Shown: piece after piece, positions 3,949-47,478 of the stretch | Layout of the letters: every line of letters begins with the position of its first letter | Numbering within the stretch: position 1 is the first letter of the stretch | From: the human T2T-CHM13v2.0 reference genome, Homo sapiens | Reading direction: 5' to 3' (one strand) | Length of the DNA: 64,000 bases | Assembly: GCF_009914755.1 (NCBI RefSeq) | Contig: NC_060935.1 | Translations under genes and position numbers: made by a program | The notes under the pieces: model-generated | What the model saw: only the letters and a program-made list of their open reading frames with translations | Told to the model about the DNA's origin: nothing | The model's database searches: none

Positions 3949-5678
3949 ATATCACTTTGCCTCTTCGAGTTTTCATTTCCTAATAGAGATAAGCACATCT
4001 ATGAAAGAGACTGTTAACTAATCACCAAAATCCCTTTTGTCCTTCTTCTATAGGTCTAAGATTGTAGCTAAGATATTGCTACCCAGGTAAGGACCATATT
4101 TCTCAAATTCTTGCCAAGTCTGGGATTTGATTCTACCTTACTGAAAGCTAATATGTTAGCTTCTGACTGTTTCACTGGTGCTAATGGAAGACACAAGACC
4201 CTTAGGTCAGAGACAAAGGAGTTTAGTACTCATGACACATCAAGCAGCAGGAACATCAGCATATTTGCATTGGTTCTTCTTGCCCTGGGTCTTATGGGGG
4301 ATAATACAATGGCCCCAGATGGATGTTATGCATGCAGAGTGTTTGTGTTGCAACTGAGGAGCACCAAGCTTGGGGAATCCATCACTTTTATAGTAAGCAA
4401 TAAGCAAGCCTATTCATTGTCCCTGGTGGTGTGTGTGTCATAGGGAAGGATAAGTAGATGTAATTTCATTTCCTAAGGTAATTGTCTGTATAAACAACCC
4501 TAAGAAATAGCCAGAATAAAAGAGCAGTGAGATCCTTGAAGTTCTGGTATATTCAGCAAGACATGTAGGAATGCAAGAGGTCCAAGGAGGACTCTCTCCC
4601 AACAGCTCTTTTGAAACTTGATATGGCCATGTCACTTAGACTTCTGCATTAGAATATGAGGGGCAAGATATGTGTCCCTTGTGGGAAGACACCTTAAAAC
4701 GAGGCTATGCCTCATTTAATTCCTCTTTCCCCTTTGTGTTTGCTGGTTAATGGCAATGACAAGAGAGATTTTGGAAGACAAGTGTTGAAAAAGCTGCCAT
4801 CAGCCTGAGTCCAGGATGACTGTGCACAGAAGGGTTGCCCATCAACTTAGAACATTCACTTCAAATTGTCACGTGCGTGAGACATACACTTTTTATTCTG
4901 CAAGCTGTCTGGAAACGTCATTTGTTACAGTGACTCAGTATATCCTTCACTAATAAAACATCTCATGCAGAAGGGTTGCAAGGATTAAATGAAATTCCAA
5001 TGGCTAAAGTTTGTGCACAGCTAACTCTGGGCCAGGGTCTTGCTAAAAGCTTGAGTGTGTTATTTCATTAAATAATTACAATAATCTTTCAAAGTAGGTG
5101 TCATCATCTCCATTTCATAATTGGAGATCAAAGACATTAAAAAATATTCTTAAGCTTCAAGGATGAAACAGTAGCAGAACTGGGACCAAATTCAGGGCTG
5201 ACCAATGCCAAGCCCATGATTGTCTTCAGTGTGCCACATGTTTTCCAGGGTTTCAATTTTAGGTTCCAGGTTCTCTCTCTTTCTCCCTCTCTCTCTTCTC
5301 ACTCTCTCTCTTTAGCCATCCCACCTACCGTTGATCCCTCCTCTCTTCTTTTTCTCTCTCCTTCCGCCATTTCTTCATATTGAATTATATTTTCATACCA
5401 GATAGCATACTGGAATGCAAAAAATAACTCCAGTCAGGAGCTCTGATTTTTGGTTTCAGCTTCCGCAAATCCTAGCTGTGAGTACTTGGTCAATCATTTA
5501 ATCGCTCTGAGCCTGAGTTTTCCGGTCAGAGTAAAATAGATAGATCAGTAATAGTTGTCTTACCTATCTTACATGATAGCCAGAAGGTTCAATTAAAATA
5601 CATTGCATTGAAAGTCTTTACAAATTGAAAAACATTCTAGAAATGGCAGGTGTTACTCTTTACCCCCATCCCATATGC

Positions 5679-5863
5679 CAGTAGTTCACAAAGTATAGTC
5701 CCTGGACAGCAGCATCAGCGTCACTGGGAGCTTGTTAGAAGTGCAAATTGTTAGGCTCCACCCAGACCTGCTGAATTATGAAATCTGGGGGTTGGGTCCA
5801 GGAAACTGTGTTTGTTAAGTTCTCCAGGTGATTCTGATGCACACTGAATTTTGAGAACCACTG
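5679..5863. mobile_element. MER5A hAT-Charlie MITE
   Basis: cagtagttcacaaa...ttgagaaccactg terminal inverted repeats, ~185 bp. Confidence 0.88.
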
Positions 5864-6946
5864 TCACACATGCTTGGACATACGTTCACAGGCACACACA
5901 CTCATATTCAGGTAAAATCAAGTTAAAATAAATATTAAATAAAAAAGAAGCCATATAAGAGCTGCCTGTGGATGGTGTTTGGGAGAAGGAGGTAGTGAGC
6001 CGTGCTAAGAAGAGGCTTGGGAGGAAGGAGTGAGATATCCTTGCCATTGCAAGGATAAGTGTCAGGCCTCTTAGTTCAGTGGAATTTCTCTCCTCTTCCT
6101 CCCGAGTTGGTGCTGTGAGCCCCACTATAGCAACTGGATGAGGAGCAGGAAATGTGGGTCTTAAGGAAATAACTCAATATTTTTAGGATTCTTTCCATTG
6201 TAAATAAGAGAAACCCATCACAAACAGTTTTGGTCAAAAATGAACACTTATCGGCTTACAAAATTTAAAAGTCCAGAGGTAGATTGGCTTCATGCATAAG
6301 ACAGATTCTGGGTCTCAAACGTCATTGGAATCTATTTCTCTCATTGTGCTGGCTCTAATTTTCCCTGTTATTTTCATCACTCTTGGGGTCTTCTCTTGCA
6401 GTGGTAAAAATAGCCAAAAGCCTTCTAAGGCCCATGTTTGATTTGTTTAGCCACTCCCATATAAGAAGGAGTGACTTTTTCCCCATGGTTCCAACAGAAA
6501 TCCTAGGCTGACTCTCTTTGATCCTGCTTGGGGCACTGGACCAATTAACATGACTCTGATTGGCCAGACCTAGGTCATCCCCAATCCTGGAATCTGGCAA
6601 GGCCACACGAACTGGGTCCTGAATTATCTGATAGAGCAGAGGTATCTTGAACTGCTCACTTTAGGACTGCCTAGTGAGAGACACATAACATTTCTCTTTT
6701 ATTTAAGCCAGTGTGTTTTTGGGTTTCTTTGTTCTAGCAGCTTAGCCTGCATGCTAACATACCCTGTACCAAGGAAGCAGTGTGGGAAAATGGACTGATT
6801 ATTTAGAGATCTGGGATCTCATTAGTTCTACAATTTGCTGTGATGTGACCAGTTTCTTCTTGTGTAAAATAAGCCATGCGGATTGAATCTGGGATGCAGG
6901 AAAATGGAATTCATCTTGAGCAGAATGGGGAAAATAATCGTATTTA

Positions 6947-7278: not shown

Positions 7279-8277
7279 TACTTCATAGGGTTGTGAGAAT
7301 TAGAGGAGCTAATGCCTAGGGCCTGAGACACAACAGATGCCCTATAAGTATGAACTATATTCATTATTATAAGGTCTGCCCTGACTGACTGCAGGAGGCT
7401 GCCCGGAAGGCTGAGTTGACAAGCCTATAAATCCCCACCAGGACCACATCAGAGCTCACTGGAAATGAGCACCATTGTCAGCCAGCAGTGTTATCCATGG
7501 ACACAGGACAGGGAGTTCCTTGTAATGGAGGAGGCCCCTTCCCTTCCAACTTTAGAGAATGGTATATATTTATACTAAGCCAGCTTAGAAGTGTCCTCTT
7601 TTCCCCTTTTCCCTATACTACCCACACCACCAGGGGCTTCAGGTAAAACACAAACATAAGAGTCCCTGACAGCCTTTCACTCCCTGGCAGTTCTTTTCTC
7701 CACCCACTTTCTCATTTTCTGGGCCGAACTCTTGAATCCGGAGACTCCAGACTTATGAGAGATGCCTAGACTTCTCCAGCTTCTCTTTTTAAATTGTTTT
7801 TACTTCCCTCTCGTTCTGACTCAAATCTCATCTCAGGGACTGGAAATTGCTGTGTTAAATGATATTGTCAGCCTGGTCTTTGAAGGATGCGTTTCTAGGA
7901 CCGTGGCCTCCCCACAGGTCCAATCCCATTTGGGGTGATTCTGCCTCTGCTGGTTCCACTAGCCTAAGAAGTTCTGGGTCCAAAGAGGAGCCTCCATGGG
8001 GGTTCTGGTCTGCTGAGAACCCAATCACTAACACAATTTAGAAAATAACCCAAGTCAGATAATCCAAATCTGAAATCCCATCCCCAATCCCTAATTGTAT
8101 GCAGGGAAATGTCTTATTTTGACCATTTTCAAAAGTCACAGAAAGTGTGGAAATGATGTATGAGTGAGGGCTCAATTGAAGAAAATAAAATCCAACTAGT
8201 TTAAATGGGATCGTTTGCAGAGGCTAAATCCACTCCAACAGCCCTATTCTTAAATCTTTCGATTCCTTCTTCTATAT

Positions 8278-39070: not shown

Positions 39071-41563
39071 TCATTCTCCACCCCTCCCTGTGTTCACATT
39101 GTTTGCCCCATAAGTCCACTCTGTCACTGGCACATGGCTTGCTTTGGCCAACAGGATGTGAGCAGATGTGACACAGCAGATCTTTACAAAAGCACTTGCA
39201 CTTTTCTGCTTAGGCCTTGCTGGCTGAGTGGCCATAAGCACATGCCTGGGCTAGCCTCCTGGAGTATAACTCCCCTGGGACAGCCAAATTGTCCTAGTTA
39301 TCCCAGCTGTGGCCATCCTAGCAAAGCCAATAGCCAACCAGTCCCAAGCTTGTAAGTGAGCACAGTCAAAACAAGGAAGACTGCCCAGCCAACAGCAGCT
39401 GACTGCAGAGGCATGAGCGAGCCCAGCCCAGCAGAGATAAGCTAAGCTGAGCCCAGGTCAGCTAAGACCCTGCACACTTGTAAACAACACAGTTTATTCT
39501 TGCACGCCAATGAAATTATTGAGGTTGCTCATTACAAAGGATTAGTATGTCAATGGATATCTGGTAATAAATGCGATTTAAACATCCAGCAATTGAGGAA
39601 TGGTGCAATACCTTGCAGCAATTAAGAAAGCTGGTATAAAGACTATACTTTCAGGGATCATTTCTATAGTTCATTACTAAAGAAGTCTATCTGAACATGT
39701 AGAACACATGACACCATAAGGAGGAGGCACAACATTCTCCCTAGAGCCTGAAGCTGGCTCTTGGTGTTTCATGACTACAGCAGCCATTTGCCACTGATGA
39801 CTGTTCTCTTCCAGGAGAATAAGAAGGAGAAGATGCAGTTTGGGTTGTTTAAAAAAAAGAATTCTGATGCAGATGTATATTGACTTGAAATGTTCACAAC
39901 AGACTGATAAATTGTAGGCGGAATGGGAATGGGAAGCAGGTTGCAAAACAATGTATGTAATATGATACCATTTTCATAAAACATATATTTACACATTTGC
40001 ATATGAATGAGTCAGGTCTGATACACAAGATGCTGAAAGTGGTTATTTCCAAATGGTAGGATTTGGGGTGATTTTCATTTGTTGTTTATCTGTGTTTTAG
40101 AGTTATTCTATAGGAACATGTGTCATTTGTACAATTTTCAAAGGGGAGAAAAAAATCTTTTCCATAGAGTACAGCATTAAAAAATTTTGAAATCCTTTAG
40201 CTTATCCATAACAACCCTGAGTGTGTTTCAAGTACTTTTTGTGGAAAAAGTCATTGTCCGCTCTTGCAGCATCCTGTCCAGGAGACTTGGTAACACTGGC
40301 TTGTCCAGGATTCACTAAGGGATTGCAGGTAGCAGAACCTGCCTGTCTGATCCCACTGGTAACCCTGAGCTCTGTGGTTGGCAGTGGCTTCATCTTTCCA
40401 GCCCACACAGAGACAGCGAAGCCTAAAAGCTCCTCTACCTTGGAGGAGGCAAGGGTTGGGGTCACTGCGGTTCCCTACTATCCTAACAGCAGAGTAGAGC
40501 CTTCCCAGTAACTTCTTGCCCACAGAGGTTAGTTATGACCTTTAGGAAAACAAAAGAGACCTTTTAAAATTTCCTACTAACAGGAAGCCAAATTTCATAC
40601 ATTCAGAGTAAGAAATTCAATGCCCCAAGGCAGGACAAGGATAGCTACCACCTTAATCCTTCTAAAGGATAAAAGGACTTCCTGCCGGCCTGCCTGCCTG
40701 CATTTCCTCCTTCCTTGCTCTATTTTTCTCTTTCTTTTTCTCTCTCTCTCATTCTTCCTCTTTTCTTCCTTTCTTATCCCATTTGCAGTTAGGCTTTTAC
40801 CTAAAACAAATCCTAGTTTAAAGCAAGTAGATCCGTCCCTTTACTGTCCTTACCAGTTCTCAATTTGCAATAAATCCCAAATACTTTTTTTTTTTTTCTG
40901 CCATTACTGGTGCTGTTGCTAAAACCCTCCTCAGAGAGCTGGTGAAAATTACCCATCAGGCTGATGGGGTCTCATGGAATCATATAATCCGATCCCAGCT
41001 TGTCCCTAAAACACTCACTTCTTTCCATCATTCCTACTTCCTTATCCTTTTGCCGAATTCGAATAGATCTTAATCTTTTCAGCATTTTTATGCCCCAGCA
41101 CTCCTGTCCTACCGTCCTCACATTCTGTGGAGACATTGACTCAGAACATGCCCAACTGCCCTTGCATCTCCCTCTAAATGGCTCCCTGCTGTTTGTTTCC
41201 AGTGTATCACCCTCCTCACCTCCCATCTCCCGCCAAGCTCTCGACCCCAACACAACTGGTTTTCCCTAGGACAGTGATTATTTTGGTTCAGATCCAGAGG
41301 ATCATGAGGAGTCCATGAGGCCCTGAAGGTGATCCACAAATCTTCAGAAAGCAAAGCAGAATCTTTATGTCAATTTTTAGGTGTGAGTCCCTAGCTTTCT
41401 TTTAATTTCCAAAGGGCTGTATAGATCTAGACAGTGCTTTATCAGTTACCCTCTCTTTCTTGAATTTTTAGGCTCCCTCCCTTTCAACTGGTATCCCCTT
41501 CTCCATCTACACATAACCTGGGTGTACCAGGGCCATGGACAACTACGAAATATAATTACCAGG

Positions 41564-42288
<725 letters not shown>

Positions 42289-42359
42289 CCAGAAATAAAA
42301 ATAACTTGCTTTAAGATATCAAAGTTGCTATCTTTGTTACACTGACAATAGATTCCTAA

Positions 42360-44985
42360 CTTATCTTTTTTCTCTGGCTGCTTTTAAGATCTTCTCTTTA
42401 TCACTGGTTTTAAGCAATTTGATTATGAGATGTCTTAGTGGAGTATTCTTCATGTTTCTTGAACTTGGAGTTTATTGAGCTTCTTGGATCTGCAGATTAT
42501 AATTTTCATAAAGTTTGGAGATTTTTTCACATCATTTTTTCAAATATGTATATTTTTTGCTTCCCATTCACAGACTTGAATTATATATATAATTCCAAGT
42601 GGCACATCCCACTTCCTGGGTTCAGTGGGATAGTCCTACCTCCCTGGAGACCCTACCAACCAACACATCTTCAGCCCCTCCCTCCTGAAGTGGCCACAGC
42701 AGCTCAAGGAAGACAGAAATTTAAGTTTGTCCCAGAGATAACTAATGCTCTTTAATTTTTAAAATTCGTTCTTGTCTGAGTCTTTTACTTAGGCCAGTTT
42801 CTATTGCTATGCCTCCAAGTTCATTAATATTTTCTTCTCATTGTAAAGACTGGGGGACCTCTTTCTTAAGTGATCTTTGTCTTAAGATTTGGTGCAATAT
42901 ATCAGTAGACCTAACAGAATGAATATCTAACAAAAGAAAGTTGAAAACTAAATGACTGTTACCTTTCTCTTTGAAATACTGTAGGAATGAAAGTTAGATA
43001 TACTTTGTGACTTCCACGAGACACTGACCATCACACAGGCTGTGATTTTTATCAGTGCAAGACGCAAGGTGAGCAGGCTCACTGAGAAAACGCACACCAG
43101 GGACTTCACAGTTCCTGCTCTGCATGATGATATGGACTAGAAGGAAAAAGATGTTAGCATGAGGGATTTCTGATCAGGGTCAAGCTGTGTTCTGATCACT
43201 AATGACTTGTCGGCTTGTGGGATGGAGGAGCAATGAGTGTCTTTGGTTACAAACTGTGATCTACCTACCAATTGTGAAAACTATATTCACAGGAGTCGAC
43301 AGCAGCAGTTGATGGCAAGATGGTACTCAGAAATGGCATTGATGTAATTTAGGACGTGGAATCATAAGTGAGACAGCACACAATTAGAACAAAGAATTGG
43401 CAGAGGGGGTCGACTTGGGAAGAAAGGTGTGGATATAAACTGTTACTGAAGAAGACAAATAGATTGTTCATGACACTGAGACTTTCTACGATACCATAGC
43501 GGAAGAGATGCCCATGCATGTGGCTGACCTTATTTCATTCCGAAGTGAGATAGTTTTGGATGCAGTGCTCGTTGTTGCTGAATAAGTGACCACAATGTGC
43601 ATTGTGCTTCTTTCTTTGGAAATATTTGAATCTTGTCTCAATGCTTAAAATCGATCAGAGATACAGATTTTGATAGCAAAGTGACATTAGTCATGAGCCC
43701 TTGTGAAGATAGTCATTATTTTTTATCTTCTTTAGAGTTAGACTGAGGGGGTGGGTATAAAAGATGGGGTCTATAACATCTTTCTTTCTTAGAAATGTAT
43801 TTCCTAGTCCCATGGAAATGGTTGCATTAGATGTTCTCTATCATTTAATAATATACTTGTGGACTAAAAGATAAAAGTGCTGTATGAAATAAGCCAATTA
43901 TGTTAAACTAGCACATCTGCCTTTACTGCGTTTATCATTAGTCTGAATAGAAAGACCTTTAAAATTAATTTTTTAGAAAGCATTTGAATGCATTCTTTGC
44001 TATTGTATTTATTCAATAAAGTATTTAATTAGTAAAAAGATATTGTCTTCTGCAATATCTAACCTTCTGTTAATCTTATATGGTGTATTTTTCATCCCAG
44101 ATTTCAAAGTTTTGCTATCTAGGCTTTCAATTTGTGTCTTTTTTGTATTTTCTCTGGCTCTTCTGAACTTTTAAAACATTTAACACAATTACAATAATTG
44201 TTTTAATGTTCTTCTCTGTTAAGTCTAATATCTGTGTCAGTTCTGGGTCAGTTTTTACAGACCGATTATTCTCCTCGCTGTGTTTTCCTGCCTTGCTGTG
44301 TCTTTGATTGGATAATGCAAATTGTGAATTTCACCTTGTTGGGTGCCAAATTTTTTTTTTTTTTAATTCTTGTATGTTTTCTTGAGCTTTTCAGGTCTTG
44401 CCTTTGTGCTTTGAGAGGCACTTTCTGGAGCAGTGCTCAGTCTAGGGTTAATTATTCCCCACCACTGAGGCAAGACCTTACTAAGTACCCAGTGCCCCAT
44501 GAATGATGAGTTTTTCCAGTCTGACTGATGGGAACAGGTACCATGCCTGGCACCCACTGTTCCTTCTAATCCTTTCAGATGGCTCAGTCCTCAGCCTACA
44601 CGCATGCACTGTTCACCACTTTGCTGAATGGCCAAGGGGATCCTCTGTGGAGCTTTGGGATTCTCTCTCTGTGCAGCCGTCTTCTCTCCAGTACTCTCTC
44701 TTTAGAACCACGGCTGACTTGGTCTCTCTGGACACTCACTTCTGTCTTTTCAACTTCAGGAGTCTGCCAGGATCCATCTTAGTTCTCCCTCTCTGCACAG
44801 TGACCTGGCAACTCTGCCAAGGTAATTCTGGGGTAATCCTGGGACTCACCTAGTTTGTTTCCAATGTTGTTCATTGCCTGGTGTCCAGTGTCTTGAAAAC
44901 TGTTGCTTCATATATTTTGTTTGTTTGTTTCAAATGGGAGGATAAATCCAGTCCCTCCTTCACTCCATCTTGACCAGAAGCAGAA
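42360..44985 (-). mobile_element. Old L1M fragments (host of the EIF4A2 retrocopy)
   Basis: ctctggctgcttttaagatcttctctttatc... The L1-like sequence resumes across the retrocopy (ttttcttct|gcaatatctaacc). Confidence 0.65.
42839..44039 (+). pseudogene. EIF4A2P5: 5'-truncated, partly processed EIF4A2 (eIF4A-II DEAD-box helicase) retrocopy; symbol from recollection
   Basis: From 42985 it translates as [34 protein letters not shown]...ALHDDMD*KEKD...DLPTNCENYIHR. From 43395 it gives IGRGGRLGKKGV..., then after a frameshift ...EEMPMHVADLI. This is the eIF4A2 C-terminal half with stops. About 500 nt of 3' UTR, AATAAA at 44015 and a short A tail follow. TSD ATATTTTCTTCT (42827) / ATATTGTCTTCT (44040). 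Confidence 0.93.
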
Positions 44986-47478
44986 GTTGGTAGCTATTGT
45001 TATTTTATCATTCATTCAAGATATTTTAGGGGCACCTACTATGAGCCAGGCACTATACTAGGTTGAGTATACAGTGGTGAGCCAAAAGAATATGGTCCTG
45101 GTCTCACAGCAAATCTGTCTTATGGCGATCAACTTCTGCCAGAAGGCAGTAAATATGGTAGGCCCTGGATTTACGAACATGGACATGAATCGGCTGTGAT
45201 CATTTCTCTCAAGGAATTCAGAATTAGAAGGGAAGAAAAATTAATACAAAGCTGACTGTGAGAAGTATGTGAGATACAAAGGCTCTGGGCATATTGATGA
45301 AGAAATAATTAATTCTGATTTAAGGTATAAGGGAAAACTTCATGGAGAAGGTGACATTTGAGTTGGGACCTGAAAAGTTCATGTAATTTTGAATGGTGGA
45401 GAAGCAGGAGGGAGGTAGAGATGCTGAAAGTGCTTTTAAACATGTGGCAGACACAGCTATTTGGCTTGTTCTTCCTCGCCCACAGAACCCTAATCATGTG
45501 CTTCAGAGGATGCTACATACAGTACTTTCCAGCTCCTACCAGTGAGTCTTGATTGGTTGAAATCAATCATGGAATTTCTATTCCCCATGCCTGTCACTGG
45601 ATCCAGCATAGGCACATGACACAATTCTGGCCAATGAGATATGAGGGACAGTCTGCTGGGAAAGTTTATTTTTCAAAGAAAGGGAGAGAACATTCCTTTC
45701 CCCTACTGTTTCTGAGGGAGAAACAAAAACAAAAACAAAAAAACCTGATTCCTTGATGATGTCCTGAAACCACTGAAATTAACCAATCTGAAACCAATAT
45801 AACTCATGACTTCTTGTTGCATGAGATGGTAAAGTTTTCTTCTTGTTTCAGTAACTTCTGGTTGGATTTTTGTTGTAGTTGATGGTGTTACTTTTGGCCA
45901 GATGCGGGAGACCAGCATACCCTAAGCTGATCAGTTTACCCATTTGAAACTCGCTTTTCCTTTTCACTGAATCAACCCTCTGCTAAATGTTACTTATCTT
46001 GTTCTTGTTCCTCTGCTTCATCAAGAATGGAGGTTAACCTAAGACCTAAGGCATGACAATGCACTTAGTCACTCTTCCCAAACATGCACATGGGGGGGAG
46101 ATGCAAAACAGCTTTGAAAATGAAAGAAAGCAATTACACAGTGCAATACCTTGACTATTCTGTCCCATCATCCTTCCTGAACCTTTGATTGGGAGGACTT
46201 GAACTCTTATGGTAGGGTGGAGGGATGAAAATAAATATAAAGGAAAAGAGTGTAGGCAAGCCCAGGGGAAATTATGTAAATTCTTCCGGATTCACAGCAG
46301 TGCTAGAATTCTCTGGTAATTCCCACAGGAGCCAAGACTACCTCTGAAACAATCTAACTGTTGGAAACCACCAGTGTCTGGCAGGAAGCCAACTATAACA
46401 AGGGCAAAAGATATGCCTTTTTGGAGAGTCTGGACCAATCCCAGGGACCCAGGCCAGCCTGTGGCCAAAGTTGTGAATATGCAAAAACTGTCACCAGTCT
46501 CCACTCGCTTTCCCGTTCCCTTCCTAGTCCCCTTCTTTTTCTAGCCCCAATCTTTTTCTCCCTGTTCCTCCTCCCACTCCTCCTTCTCCTCCCTCACTCA
46601 CTCAACAATTCATATCCTGCTTGCCTGATGAGCACAGAAGGTACTAAACCGCCTACCTTAGGACACTTGCATTTCAGCAGGGAGCTCTTACACCCCCAAG
46701 GTAATGCTCCTCTATTGCTAGAAATTCAGATCTCTAGGCTGGCTGGGGGAAGCATGTCTGGTCTCAGGCACAGTACTTCTTGTGCCATGCAAAGTCAGCT
46801 GGTGGGAAGGGGGGGATCCAAGGAAAAGAAGGGGACTAGGAAGAGAAGCGGGGATCCAAGGACTGGCTTCCCAGCTCTCACTGCCAGCCAGTGGGGTCAC
46901 AAAGACATTGCCTCAAATGTGGAGCTGTCCTCTGCTAGCTCGTACAGGATCTTATCCTTCTCTCACATAACTACATCCTTCCATCTAGCTTATCTTACTC
47001 ACCTTCAGTCTCAATTTAAATGTGTCTTCCTCTGGGAGGCCTTCCCTGATTGATTCCCATGTCTGGATCGGTTCAGTACCCCCAGACCACTACATGCCTT
47101 TCTCTGTGAGCACTTGTCATGCTGACTTGTGATCCATGGATCTCAGTTAGCCAGAATCCAGCACAGCCTGACACTTAGCAGGTGCTCAGTTTATGGAACG
47201 AACGAACGAATGAACATCTGTTCATATACACTATAGCTCTGCAGACACCATGATTATCTTGTTCTCCATTGTACCCTCAGCACCCAGTCCAGTGCTTAGG
47301 CTGTAGTAGTAAGACAGTAATGATTTATTAATTGATTGAAAGAGGGCGTCCCAAGAAAGGGACTTGCGTCTATGTTGCGACGACATCTTTATTGCAAGGG
47401 CAAGAAGCACATCCCAGACCTTTTTGAAAACATCAGGGATGGAGGTGGGAGGCAAGGCAAGATGGAGGAAATTTCTAG

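What the first reader, a model, noticed from the sequence alone, without database searches (positions are those of the whole stretch)
43293..43394. EIF4A2 retrocopy contains the NMD 'poison' exon
Seen: a 102-nt block (gagtcgacagcagcag...gtaatttaggacgtggaatcataag...aacaaag) sits exactly between ...TATATTCACAG (YIHR) and AATTGGCAGAGGGGGT (IGRGG), and it lacks GT..AG ends, so it is not an intron. Knowledge (recalled): EIF4A2 has a highly conserved ~100-nt stop-containing cassette exon at this junction, giving a ...YIHRSR* isoform. Here the frame reads CAC AGG AGT CGA CAG, one base from that stop. Inference: L1 machinery captured the normally degraded isoform, giving a dated germline fossil of poison-exon inclusion and a neutrally decaying copy of a conserved exon.
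Basis: partly seen in the sequence, partly recalled or inferred. Interest (0 to 1): 0.8.

Follow-up and report, generated by a model that had tools for sequence, protein, structure and literature searches.

The report
EIF4A2 retrocopy carrying poison exon
An old, dead retrocopy of the translation factor gene EIF4A2 preserves that gene's stop-containing "poison" exon together with part of a snoRNA-bearing intron, so it is a fossil of an unproductive transcript rather than of the normal mRNA; it is a neat curiosity of known kinds, not a new mechanism.

Summary
Window 43293-43394 sits between EIF4A2 exon 10 and exon 11 sequence. It matches, at 86-87% identity, the 107-nt poison exon in EIF4A2 intron 10 on chr3. 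That is its only other place in the genome. In the parent the frame reads YIHRSR-stop. In the copy TAG has become CAG.

- **Extent.** The insertion is 42840-44039, twice the annotated pseudogene. It has a poly(A) signal, a short A remnant and a 12-nt target-site duplication that 0-1 of 1640 controls equal.
- **Retained intron.** It starts inside SNORA81 and carries the rest of intron 7, while introns 8, 9 and 10 are spliced out. This is the architecture of a 5'-truncated "Type-3 snoRNA retroposon" (Weber 2006).
- **Exon length.** Only 102 of the 107 exon bases are present; the donor-side 5 are missing.

None of 4 other EIF4A2 retrocopies, nor 2 weaker (69-70%) eIF4A-like copies, has the exon. 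This copy is the most diverged of the five.

The likely template was a snoRNP-ended, polyadenylated 3' fragment. If uncapped and untranslated, such an RNA would escape nonsense-mediated decay. That step is inferred, not shown. Verdict: a new member of known kinds, of modest interest.

The parts
42827..42838 (+). 5' copy of the target-site duplication (ATATTTTCTTCT)
   Evidence: 11 of 12 bases match 44040-44051. 1 of 1640 equally spaced control pairs reaches the score, and 0 of 1640 do when the match must abut the insert.
42840..42902 (+). 3' part of SNORA81 (parent L011 4812-4882, about nt 108-178 of the snoRNA). This is the 5' end of the insertion.
   Evidence: Searches show the alignment to parent intron 7. 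One search places SNORA81 at L011 4705-4882. Searches give a cmscan SNORA81 hit at 42766-42902 of 29.8 bits, below the gathering score of 45. One search shows that the sequence upstream of 42840 is no more like the snoRNA 5' half than 300 of 615 control windows.
42903..42984 (+). Rest of EIF4A2 intron 7, retained. It includes the empty site (42915-42923, CAGAATGAA) of a 183-nt Alu-like insertion now present in the parent.
   Evidence: Parent L011 4904-5086 is flanked by the CAGAATGAA direct repeat, and its end matches 12 or more dispersed repeats in the window.
42985..43122 (+). Exon 8 (138 nt), 84% identical to the parent
   Evidence: its translation matches eIF4A proteins in the PDB, E 2e-18.
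43123..43212 (+). Exon 9 (90 nt). The junction with exon 8 is exact. An in-frame stop lies at 43138-43140.
43213..43292 (+). Exon 10 (80 nt). Both junctions are exact.
43293..43394 (+). Poison exon of intron 10, 102 of 107 nt. The parent stop TAG reads CAG at 43300-43302. The last 5 nt of the parent exon are absent.
   Evidence: PMC9250932 passages
43395..44033 (+). Exon 11: the end of the coding sequence (normal stop TAA reads TCA at 43535-43537) and the 3' UTR up to a proximal poly(A) site, with AATAAA at 44015-44020.
   Evidence: Homology to the parent ends at 44033 = L011 7792.
44034..44039 (+). Remnant of the poly(A) tail (AAAAAG)
   Evidence: The parent continues with unrelated sequence after L011 7792.
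44040..44051 (+). 3' copy of the target-site duplication (ATATTGTCTTCT)

Best explanation
Window 42840-44039 is a single L1-type retroposed copy of an unproductive EIF4A2 transcript. The template RNA had four features. It still carried intron 7 from within SNORA81 to exon 8. It had introns 8 and 9 removed. It had intron 10 removed as two pieces, so that the 107-nt stop-containing poison exon was included. It was polyadenylated at a proximal site. In architecture it is a 5'-truncated 'Type-3 snoRNA retroposon': snoRNA, then the whole downstream intron, then the processed downstream exons, then an A tail, flanked by a target-site duplication. The poison exon comes along as an extra. Shown: the anatomy, the parentage, the duplication, the uniqueness of the exon among human EIF4A2 copies, and the relative age. 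Inferred: the template was a 3' fragment whose 5' end was protected by the SNORA81 H/ACA snoRNP, like the 3'-snoRT and cSPA RNAs described for EIF4A1 and NOP56. If such an RNA is uncapped and untranslated, its stop codon would not be read, it would escape nonsense-mediated decay, and it could persist long enough to be reverse-transcribed. Reverse transcription would then have stopped inside the snoRNA's 3' hairpin. Also inferred: the missing 5 nt at the exon's donor end are a later small deletion. The copy has since decayed without constraint and has no function.
For: Parentage. and map successive pieces of the window onto chr3 in order: intron 7, E8, E9, E10, an intron-10 piece at C3:189610336-189610442, then E11. 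The exon bounds come from 4 fully processed retrocopies and from GT-AG sites. The chr3 locus carries SNORD2, SNORA81, SNORA63 and SNORA4, which PMC8759569 passages name as EIF4A2 intron snoRNAs.

Poison exon. It is 86.3% identical over 102 nt and occurs at only 2 genomic places. The parent frame reads YIHRSR-stop. PMC9250932 passages describe a 107-bp cassette in intron 10 that is conserved in vertebrates and stabilised by UPF1 knockdown.

Retroposition. The junctions E8/E9, E9/E10 and E10/PE are exact. AATAAA and an AAAAAG remnant are present. The 12-nt target-site duplication abuts both ends, and 0-1 of 1640 controls equal it.

Intron 7 retention. Window 42840-42984 is colinear with L011 4812-5156 minus a 183-nt Alu-like insertion that has its own 9-nt duplication in the parent.

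Known classes. Weber 2006 (PMC1687206, passages) defines Type-3 snoRTs. [quoted passage not shown] It also notes that annotations overlook the intronic parts. PMC9394076 passages describe a cytoplasmic, dyskerin-bound, 5'-truncated EIF4A1 snoRNA-retaining transcript and cite cSPA RNAs as polyadenylated. PMC12152556 passages describe 3'-polyadenylated fragments ending at the snoRNA at their 5' end.

Age. This copy is 88.7% identical to the parent over 939 aligned bases of E8-E11. The four other copies are 95.6, 90.7, 91.0 and 91.5% identical.
Against: The insertion does not start at the mature 5' end of SNORA81, which is what the snoRNP-protection model predicts for an untruncated copy. It starts at about nt 108 of 178, and the upstream sequence is unrelated to the snoRNA. 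A capped, full-length, intron-7-retaining mRNA truncated by chance at that point would leave the same sequence.

The exon's donor junction is not exact, being 5 nt short, while the other three junctions are exact. A deletion landing just there is a small-probability event. My rough estimate is 2-10%, given about 15 other indels in 1200 nt.

The A tail is only 6 nt.

No data here show that an EIF4A2/SNORA81 3' fragment exists. EIF4A2 and SNORA81 are not mentioned in PMC12152556, PMC9394076 or PMC4233243 (0 occurrences in the main texts).

The SNORA81-derived part is oddly well kept: 2 substitutions in 74 nt against 11.9% elsewhere, binomial P 0.005. Plain neutral decay does not predict that.
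Confidence: 0.85

Rival explanations
1. The template was a full-length, capped EIF4A2 mRNA that retained intron 7 and included the poison exon. L1 reverse transcription simply fell off at a random point that happened to lie in SNORA81. No snoRNP-protected fragment was involved.
For: 5' truncation is the rule for L1-mediated copies (established knowledge). The start at about nt 108 of the snoRNA is not the mature 5' end. Full-length snoRNA-retaining transcripts are described beside the short forms (PMC12152556 passages).
Against: By my arithmetic from the exon sizes, a random end within the 178-nt snoRNA, out of roughly 2.2 kb of possible template, has a chance of about 8%. Such an mRNA would carry a stop 3 codons into intron 7 and so be an NMD target twice over. 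Weber 2006 reports partial-snoRNA Type-3 copies as a common outcome of the snoRNA-ended class.
Confidence: 0.3
2. One reading: a retrocopy of the ordinary, fully spliced NMD isoform (exon 10, poison exon, exon 11), 5'-truncated in exon 8 as the annotation (42985-43586) implies.
For: The annotation starts at 42985, which is the start of exon 8. The exon 10 / poison exon / exon 11 order is as in that isoform.
Against: Homology to the parent continues 145 nt upstream of 42985 through intron 7 into SNORA81. The target-site duplication lies at 42827-42838, not at 42985.
Confidence: 0.03
3. The 102-nt length is original. The template used a donor site 5 nt upstream of the annotated one, so no later deletion occurred.
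For: The other three junctions are exact, so an inexact fourth junction invites a splicing explanation. 102 nt is a whole number of codons.
Against: The parent sequence at that point is AAAG|AGCGAG, with no GT, GC or AT at the would-be intron start. PMC9250932 gives 107 bp. The copy has about 15 other small indels. The 5-nt gap can be placed in two ways, one of which spans the junction.
Confidence: 0.12
4. The block is an unrelated insertion (a transposon or other locus), or the whole region is a DNA-level duplication of EIF4A2.
For: None found.
Against: The block has only one other genomic match, inside EIF4A2 intron 10. Introns 8, 9 and both halves of intron 10 are absent. A target-site duplication and an A remnant are present.
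Confidence: 0.01

Closest known systems
Type-3 snoRNA retroposons (snoRTs) of Weber 2006, PLoS Genet (PMC1687206), e.g. U70/RPL10
   Same: An H/ACA snoRNA sequence is followed by the entire downstream intron of the host gene, then by the processed downstream exons, an A-rich tail and a target-site duplication. The element was annotated as a processed pseudogene with the intronic part overlooked. A later Alu insertion in the parent intron is absent from the copy, a situation the paper also reports for ACA36/DKC1.
   Different: This copy starts at about nt 108 of SNORA81 rather than at the mature 5' end, so it belongs with the 'truncated versions'. Its processed exon series includes an NMD cassette exon. 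EIF4A2 and SNORA81 (or HBI-61) have 0 occurrences in the paper's main text; its tables and supplements were not read.
The EIF4A2 poison-exon (NMD) isoform: the 107-bp cassette in intron 10, called 'exon 11' in the mouse literature
   Same: Same exon, same acceptor junction to exon 10, and the same position before the last exon. The parent frame is YIHRSR-stop.
   Different: It is a DNA fossil, not an RNA. It has 102 of 107 nt, the stop has mutated to CAG, and the source RNA also retained part of intron 7.
snoRNA-ended RNAs: the 5'-truncated, dyskerin-bound EIF4A1 snoRNA-retaining transcript (3'-snoRT); cSPA RNAs (NOP56), described as polyadenylated
   Same: The predicted template has the same layout: snoRNA-containing intron at the 5' end, spliced downstream exons, and a poly(A) tail. 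The EIF4A1 case is the closest paralog of the parent gene.
   Different: No EIF4A2/SNORA81 RNA of this kind was found in the papers read. Its existence here is inferred from the retrocopy alone.
Processed pseudogenes as fossils of splice variants (Shemesh et al. 2006 PNAS)
   Same: A retrocopy records an alternative isoform of its parent.
   Different: That paper is not held. Only its title was seen in a reference list. What it covers, including whether it lists EIF4A2, is recalled or unknown.

Membership tests
L1-mediated processed retrocopy | Introns removed at exact exon-exon junctions | tested here: met
   E8/E9, E9/E10 and E10/PE are exact. PE/E11 is 5 nt short on the PE side.
L1-mediated processed retrocopy | Target-site duplication flanking the insert | tested here: met
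   11 of 12 bases match, abutting both ends. 1 of 1640 controls equals the score, and 0 of 1640 when abutment is required.
L1-mediated processed retrocopy | Poly(A) tail after a polyadenylation signal | tested here: inconclusive
   AATAAA lies at 44015-20 and homology ends 13 nt later, but only a 6-nt AAAAAG remnant is left.
L1-mediated processed retrocopy | Insertion at an L1 endonuclease-like TT|AAAA site | tested here: inconclusive
   The flank reads ...CATT|AATATT.... The resemblance was judged by eye against a recalled consensus.
Type-3 snoRT (Weber 2006) | Starts at the mature 5' end of the snoRNA (truncated versions allowed) | tested here: inconclusive
   It starts at L011 4812, about nt 108 of 178. 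The upstream sequence is unrelated to the snoRNA. This fits only the 'truncated' subclass.
Type-3 snoRT (Weber 2006) | Entire intron downstream of the snoRNA present | tested here: met
   42903-42984 is colinear with L011 4883-5156, apart from the parent's later 183-nt insertion.
Type-3 snoRT (Weber 2006) | Processed downstream exons of the host gene, then an A tail | tested here: met
   E8, E9, E10, PE and E11 follow in order.
EIF4A2 poison-exon isoform | Cassette from intron 10 spliced between exon 10 and the last exon | tested here: met
   exon identity from PMC9250932.
EIF4A2 poison-exon isoform | Full 107-nt exon with the annotated donor | tested here: not met
   102 nt are present. The last 5 nt are absent.
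EIF4A2 poison-exon isoform | In-frame premature stop; transcript degraded by NMD | not testable with these tools
   The stop is present in the parent and mutated in the copy. NMD sensitivity is known from the literature only.

The most novel reading that the evidence does not exclude
The copy is a germline fossil, tens of millions of years old, of an EIF4A2 RNA that began at the SNORA81 snoRNP and ended in a poly(A) tail. That would be a cSPA or 3'-snoRT-type RNA, not so far described for this gene. Being untranslated, it would be blind to its own poison exon. If so, snoRNP-ended fragments would be a route by which NMD-doomed splice forms survive long enough to be copied into the genome. The copy would also show that intron-7 retention and poison-exon inclusion occurred on one molecule.
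Probability: 0.45. Interest if true: 0.5.

Novelty: new member of a known kind. Interest (0 to 1): 0.35.

Why it matters
The finding corrects an annotation. EIF4A2P5 is about 1.2 kb (42840-44039), not 0.6 kb, and it contains snoRNA and intron sequence.

It gives a physical record that the EIF4A2 poison exon was being included in the germline or early embryo long ago. That agrees with the exon's reported vertebrate conservation, so it is no surprise.

Its more useful point is a testable link. Retrocopies of NMD isoforms should be rare. This one may exist because its template was a snoRNP-ended, untranslated fragment. A genome-wide census could test that idea: count retrocopies that carry poison exons and ask how many also start at intronic snoRNAs.

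Tried and rejected
1. **Insertion starting at the SNORA81 5' end (42766).** This was suggested by the end-to-end cmscan hit. I rejected it. Window 42740-42839 is no more similar to the snoRNA's 5' half than 300 of 615 (strict gaps) or 158 of 615 (permissive gaps) control windows. The target-site duplication sits at 42827-42838.

2. **A functional single-hairpin snoRNA remnant.** This would explain the 97% identity of 42840-42914. I rejected it. The 5' strand of the basal stem is missing and the upper stem carries deletions. The low substitution count stays unexplained.

3. **Rfam support for the Alu nature of the parent's 183-nt insert.** The search gave no hit at E up to 1. The Alu-like call rests instead on matches to 12 or more dispersed repeats in the window and on my reading of the sequence.

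4. **PDB naming.** The exon-8 translation matches eIF4A-I and eIF4A-III chains, not an eIF4A-II chain. The EIF4A2 assignment therefore rests on the DNA parent locus and the hub annotation.

6. **Shemesh 2006** is not held in the library.

7. **Literature searches.** 'EIF4A2P5' found 1 unrelated paper. 'retrocopy + nonsense-mediated decay + poison exon' found 1 review. 'processed pseudogene + poison exon' found 11 papers, 9 of them listed; the listed titles and abstract openings did not concern this topic. I read listings only.
Full report
**Observation**

The window reads ...ctatattcacag | gagtcgacagcagcag ... gaacaaag | aattggcagaggggg, with the block at 43293-43394. The block begins GA and ends AG, so it is not an unspliced GT..AG intron.

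**Where the block comes from**

A search of the window's own genome with 42985-43600 mapped consecutive pieces of the query onto one locus on contig 3:

| Query | Place on C3 |
|---|---|
| 1-138 | 189609157-189609294 |
| 138-229 | 189609524-189609615 |
| 228-309 | 189609832-189609913 |
| 305-411 | 189610336-189610442 (87%, E 7e-28) |
| 405-616 | 189611149-189611361 |

I fetched that locus as L011. It carries SNORD2, SNORA81, SNORA63 and SNORA4 above the Rfam gathering scores. PMC8759569 (passages) names these as the snoRNAs in EIF4A2 introns. The hub annotation calls the window feature EIF4A2P5. The exon-8 translation matches eIF4A proteins in the PDB (E 2e-18); those chains are eIF4A-I and eIF4A-III, so the paralog assignment rests on the DNA.

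I derived the exon bounds from four fully processed retrocopies and from GT-AG sites. In L011 they are:

- E8: 5157-5294
- E9: 5525-5614
- E10: 5833-5912
- E11: from 7155

The block aligns to L011 6340-6441, inside intron 10. It is preceded there by ...aatacag and followed, five bases after the alignment ends, by gtcggt. PMC9250932 (passages) describes a 107-bp 'poison' cassette exon in EIF4A2 intron 10. That exon is conserved with its flanks across vertebrates, and the isoform including it is stabilised by UPF1 knockdown. A mouse study calls it exon 11 of 12 (passages).

In the parent the frame runs CAC AG|G AGT CGA TAG, that is H-R-S-R-stop. My first joined translation carried one intron base too many; the reading above uses the bound at 5912 fixed. 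In the window the TAG is CAG (43300-43302).

A search with the parent exon and its flanks found only two places in the genome, the parent and this window.

**Other copies**

Four other EIF4A2 retrocopies go directly from exon 10 to exon 11, so 0 of 4 carry the exon. They lie at C23:52.12 Mb, C18:13.08 Mb, C10:74.07 Mb and C11:58.19 Mb. Two weaker eIF4A-like copies (69-70% identity, on C24 and at C10:93.02 Mb) also lack it. The tool warns that its counts are lower bounds.

**The insertion is larger than annotated, and it retains an intron**

Aligning 40001-47000 to the parent extended the homology in both directions.

- *Downstream.* The homology runs through the 3' UTR to 44033 (L011 7792), 13 nt past an AATAAA at 44015-44020. 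Then come AAAAAG and unrelated sequence. This is a proximal poly(A) site. Three of the other copies run on to about L011 7925, and the chr18 copy ends at 7797.
- *Upstream.* The homology continues past the start of exon 8 through the 3' end of intron 7 and into SNORA81. Window 42840-42914 matches L011 4812-4894, and 42915-42984 matches L011 5087-5156.

The 183 nt of the parent that are missing from the copy (L011 4904-5086) are flanked in the parent by a direct repeat, CAGAATGAA, which the copy has only once. The end of that 183-nt piece matches at least 12 dispersed repeats in the window, and it retains one CpG. I read it as a decayed antisense Alu-family element inserted in the parent after the copy was made. 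Rfam gave no support for this at E up to 1.

The true 5' end is fixed by a target-site duplication: ATATTTTCTTCT at 42827-42838 and ATATTGTCTTCT at 44040-44051. Only 1 of 1640 control pairs at the same spacing scores as high. None of 1640 does when the match must abut the insert.

cmscan aligned the whole SNORA81 model to 42766-42902, but at 29.8 bits, below the gathering score of 45. The part upstream of 42840 is no more like the snoRNA's 5' half than 300 of 615 control windows. The insertion therefore begins at about nt 108 of the 178-nt snoRNA, just after the 5' strand of the basal stem of its 3' hairpin.

**What kind of thing this is**

The order is: partial H/ACA snoRNA, complete downstream intron, precisely spliced downstream exons, A tail, with a flanking duplication. 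This is the definition of Weber's Type-3 snoRNA retroposon (PMC1687206, passages). That paper:

- notes that such elements were annotated as plain processed pseudogenes with the intronic part overlooked, which is what happened here (annotation 42985-43586);
- explains them by cleavage of the pre-mRNA and exonucleolytic trimming up to the snoRNA, while the 3' part is spliced and polyadenylated.

RNAs of that layout are now described. PMC12152556 (passages) reports 3'-polyadenylated fragments that end at the snoRNA at their 5' end, some of them cytoplasmic. [quoted passage not shown] None of these three papers mentions EIF4A2 or SNORA81 in its main text.

**Mechanism proposed, with what is shown and what is inferred**

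*Shown.* The template RNA kept intron 7 at least from mid-SNORA81 onward. It lacked introns 8 and 9. It included the poison exon. It ended at the proximal poly(A) site. It was inserted with a target-site duplication on another chromosome.

*Inferred, at about 55-60%.* The template was a snoRNP-ended 3' fragment rather than a full-length mRNA. By my arithmetic from the exon sizes, a chance truncation inside the 178-nt snoRNA has a probability of roughly 8%. For the snoRNA-ended class, partial snoRNAs are a common outcome.

Retention of intron 7 in a translated mRNA would give a stop 3 codons into the intron, 18 nt before SNORA81. That is the right geometry for NMD cleavage followed by 5'-to-3' trimming up to the snoRNP.

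A fragment without a cap would not be translated, so its poison-exon stop would go unread. This would explain how a 'normally degraded' splice form lasted long enough to be copied. It remains an inference.

**The 5-nt shortfall**

Three junctions are exact. The poison exon, however, ends at ...AAAG, whereas the parent has ...AAAGAGCGA|gt. The would-be donor AAAG|AGCGAG is not canonical. The copy has about 15 other small indels. The gap has two equivalent placements, one of which spans the junction. I favour a later deletion (about 75%). I cannot exclude an odd donor site or a reverse-transcription slip.

**Age and decay**

Over E8-E11 the copy is 88.7% identical to the parent (939 aligned bases). 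The chrX, chr18, chr10 and second chr11 copies are 95.6, 90.7, 91.0 and 91.5% identical. Private non-CpG changes are 7.2% in this copy against 1.7-4.9% in the others. It is therefore the oldest of the five.

With recalled neutral rates of 1-2.2e-9 per site per year, a divergence of 0.11-0.12 substitutions per site gives roughly 50-120 million years. That is at or before the primate radiation, and it is consistent with the copy predating an old Alu-family insertion in the parent. No orthologous loci could be examined, so this date is rough.

The poison exon is 86.3% identical to the parent. This is within the 81-91% range of the other segments apart from the SNORA81 part, as expected for unconstrained decay. 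The reading frame is broken, for example by a stop at 43138-43140.

One oddity remains. The SNORA81-derived 74 nt have only 2 substitutions, plus four small gaps totalling 10 nt. This gives P 0.005 against the 11.9% rate elsewhere. The segment has no CpG sites and lacks a complete hairpin. I regard this as unexplained and probably chance.

**Comparison and novelty**

The poison exon is well known. Type-3 snoRTs and retrocopies of alternative isoforms are also known; for the latter I saw only the title of Shemesh 2006, because the paper is not held. I found no paper that describes EIF4A2P5's content:

- 'EIF4A2P5' found 1 unrelated paper.
- 'retrocopy + nonsense-mediated decay + poison exon' found 1 review.
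- 'processed pseudogene + poison exon' found 11 papers, 9 of them listed. The listed titles and abstract openings did not concern this topic.

These were listings only, and Weber's tables and supplements were not opened. The finding is a new member of known kinds. Its modest twist is that a poison exon and a snoRNA-intron fragment are preserved from the same ancient RNA molecule.

Noticed in passing
window 42840-42914: The SNORA81-derived part of the retrocopy has only 2 substitutions in 74 aligned bases (97%), against 81-91% identity in every other segment (binomial P 0.005). It does carry four small gaps (10 nt in all) and lacks the basal-stem 5' strand. There are no CpG sites in this stretch. 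Unexplained, possibly chance.
   Followed up: partly
L011 4904-5086 (G000:C3:189608904-189609086), parent EIF4A2 intron 7: A 183-nt decayed antisense Alu-like insertion flanked by the direct repeat CAGAATGAA lies just downstream of SNORA81 in the parent and is absent from the retrocopy. It gives a relative date: the retrocopy is older than this insertion. The repeat family was not determined.
   Followed up: partly
L015 about 1490-1690 (G000:C21:30032301-30032473) and L016 (G000:C18:21897103-21897225): Two further SNORA81 copies lie outside EIF4A2. The chr21 copy covers nearly the whole snoRNA, is followed by an A-rich tract, and has similar A-rich flanks (snoRNA retroposon-like). The chr18 copy holds the 5' two-thirds and is interrupted by an Alu. 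Neither is followed by EIF4A2 exons.
   Followed up: partly
G000:C3:186259294-186261417 (L018, L023, L025): A second chr3 locus about 3.3 Mb upstream of EIF4A2 holds 75-76% matches to both SNORA81 and SNORA63, within about 2 kb of each other. It may be a paralogous snoRNA cluster in another host gene. Not examined.
   Followed up: no
window 39639-39848: A full-length U3 snoRNA match (108.8 bits, model 1-219) lies 3 kb upstream of the retrocopy on the same strand and is annotated as LOC124902847. Whether it is a U3 retro-pseudogene was not examined.
   Followed up: no
L003 about 2423-2760 (G000:C18:13.08 Mb retrocopy): The chr18 EIF4A2 retrocopy also ends at the proximal poly(A) site (L011 about 7797), after an insertion of about 300 nt in its 3' UTR. 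So 2 of 5 human EIF4A2 retrocopies record use of the proximal site and 3 record the distal site (about 7925).
   Followed up: partly
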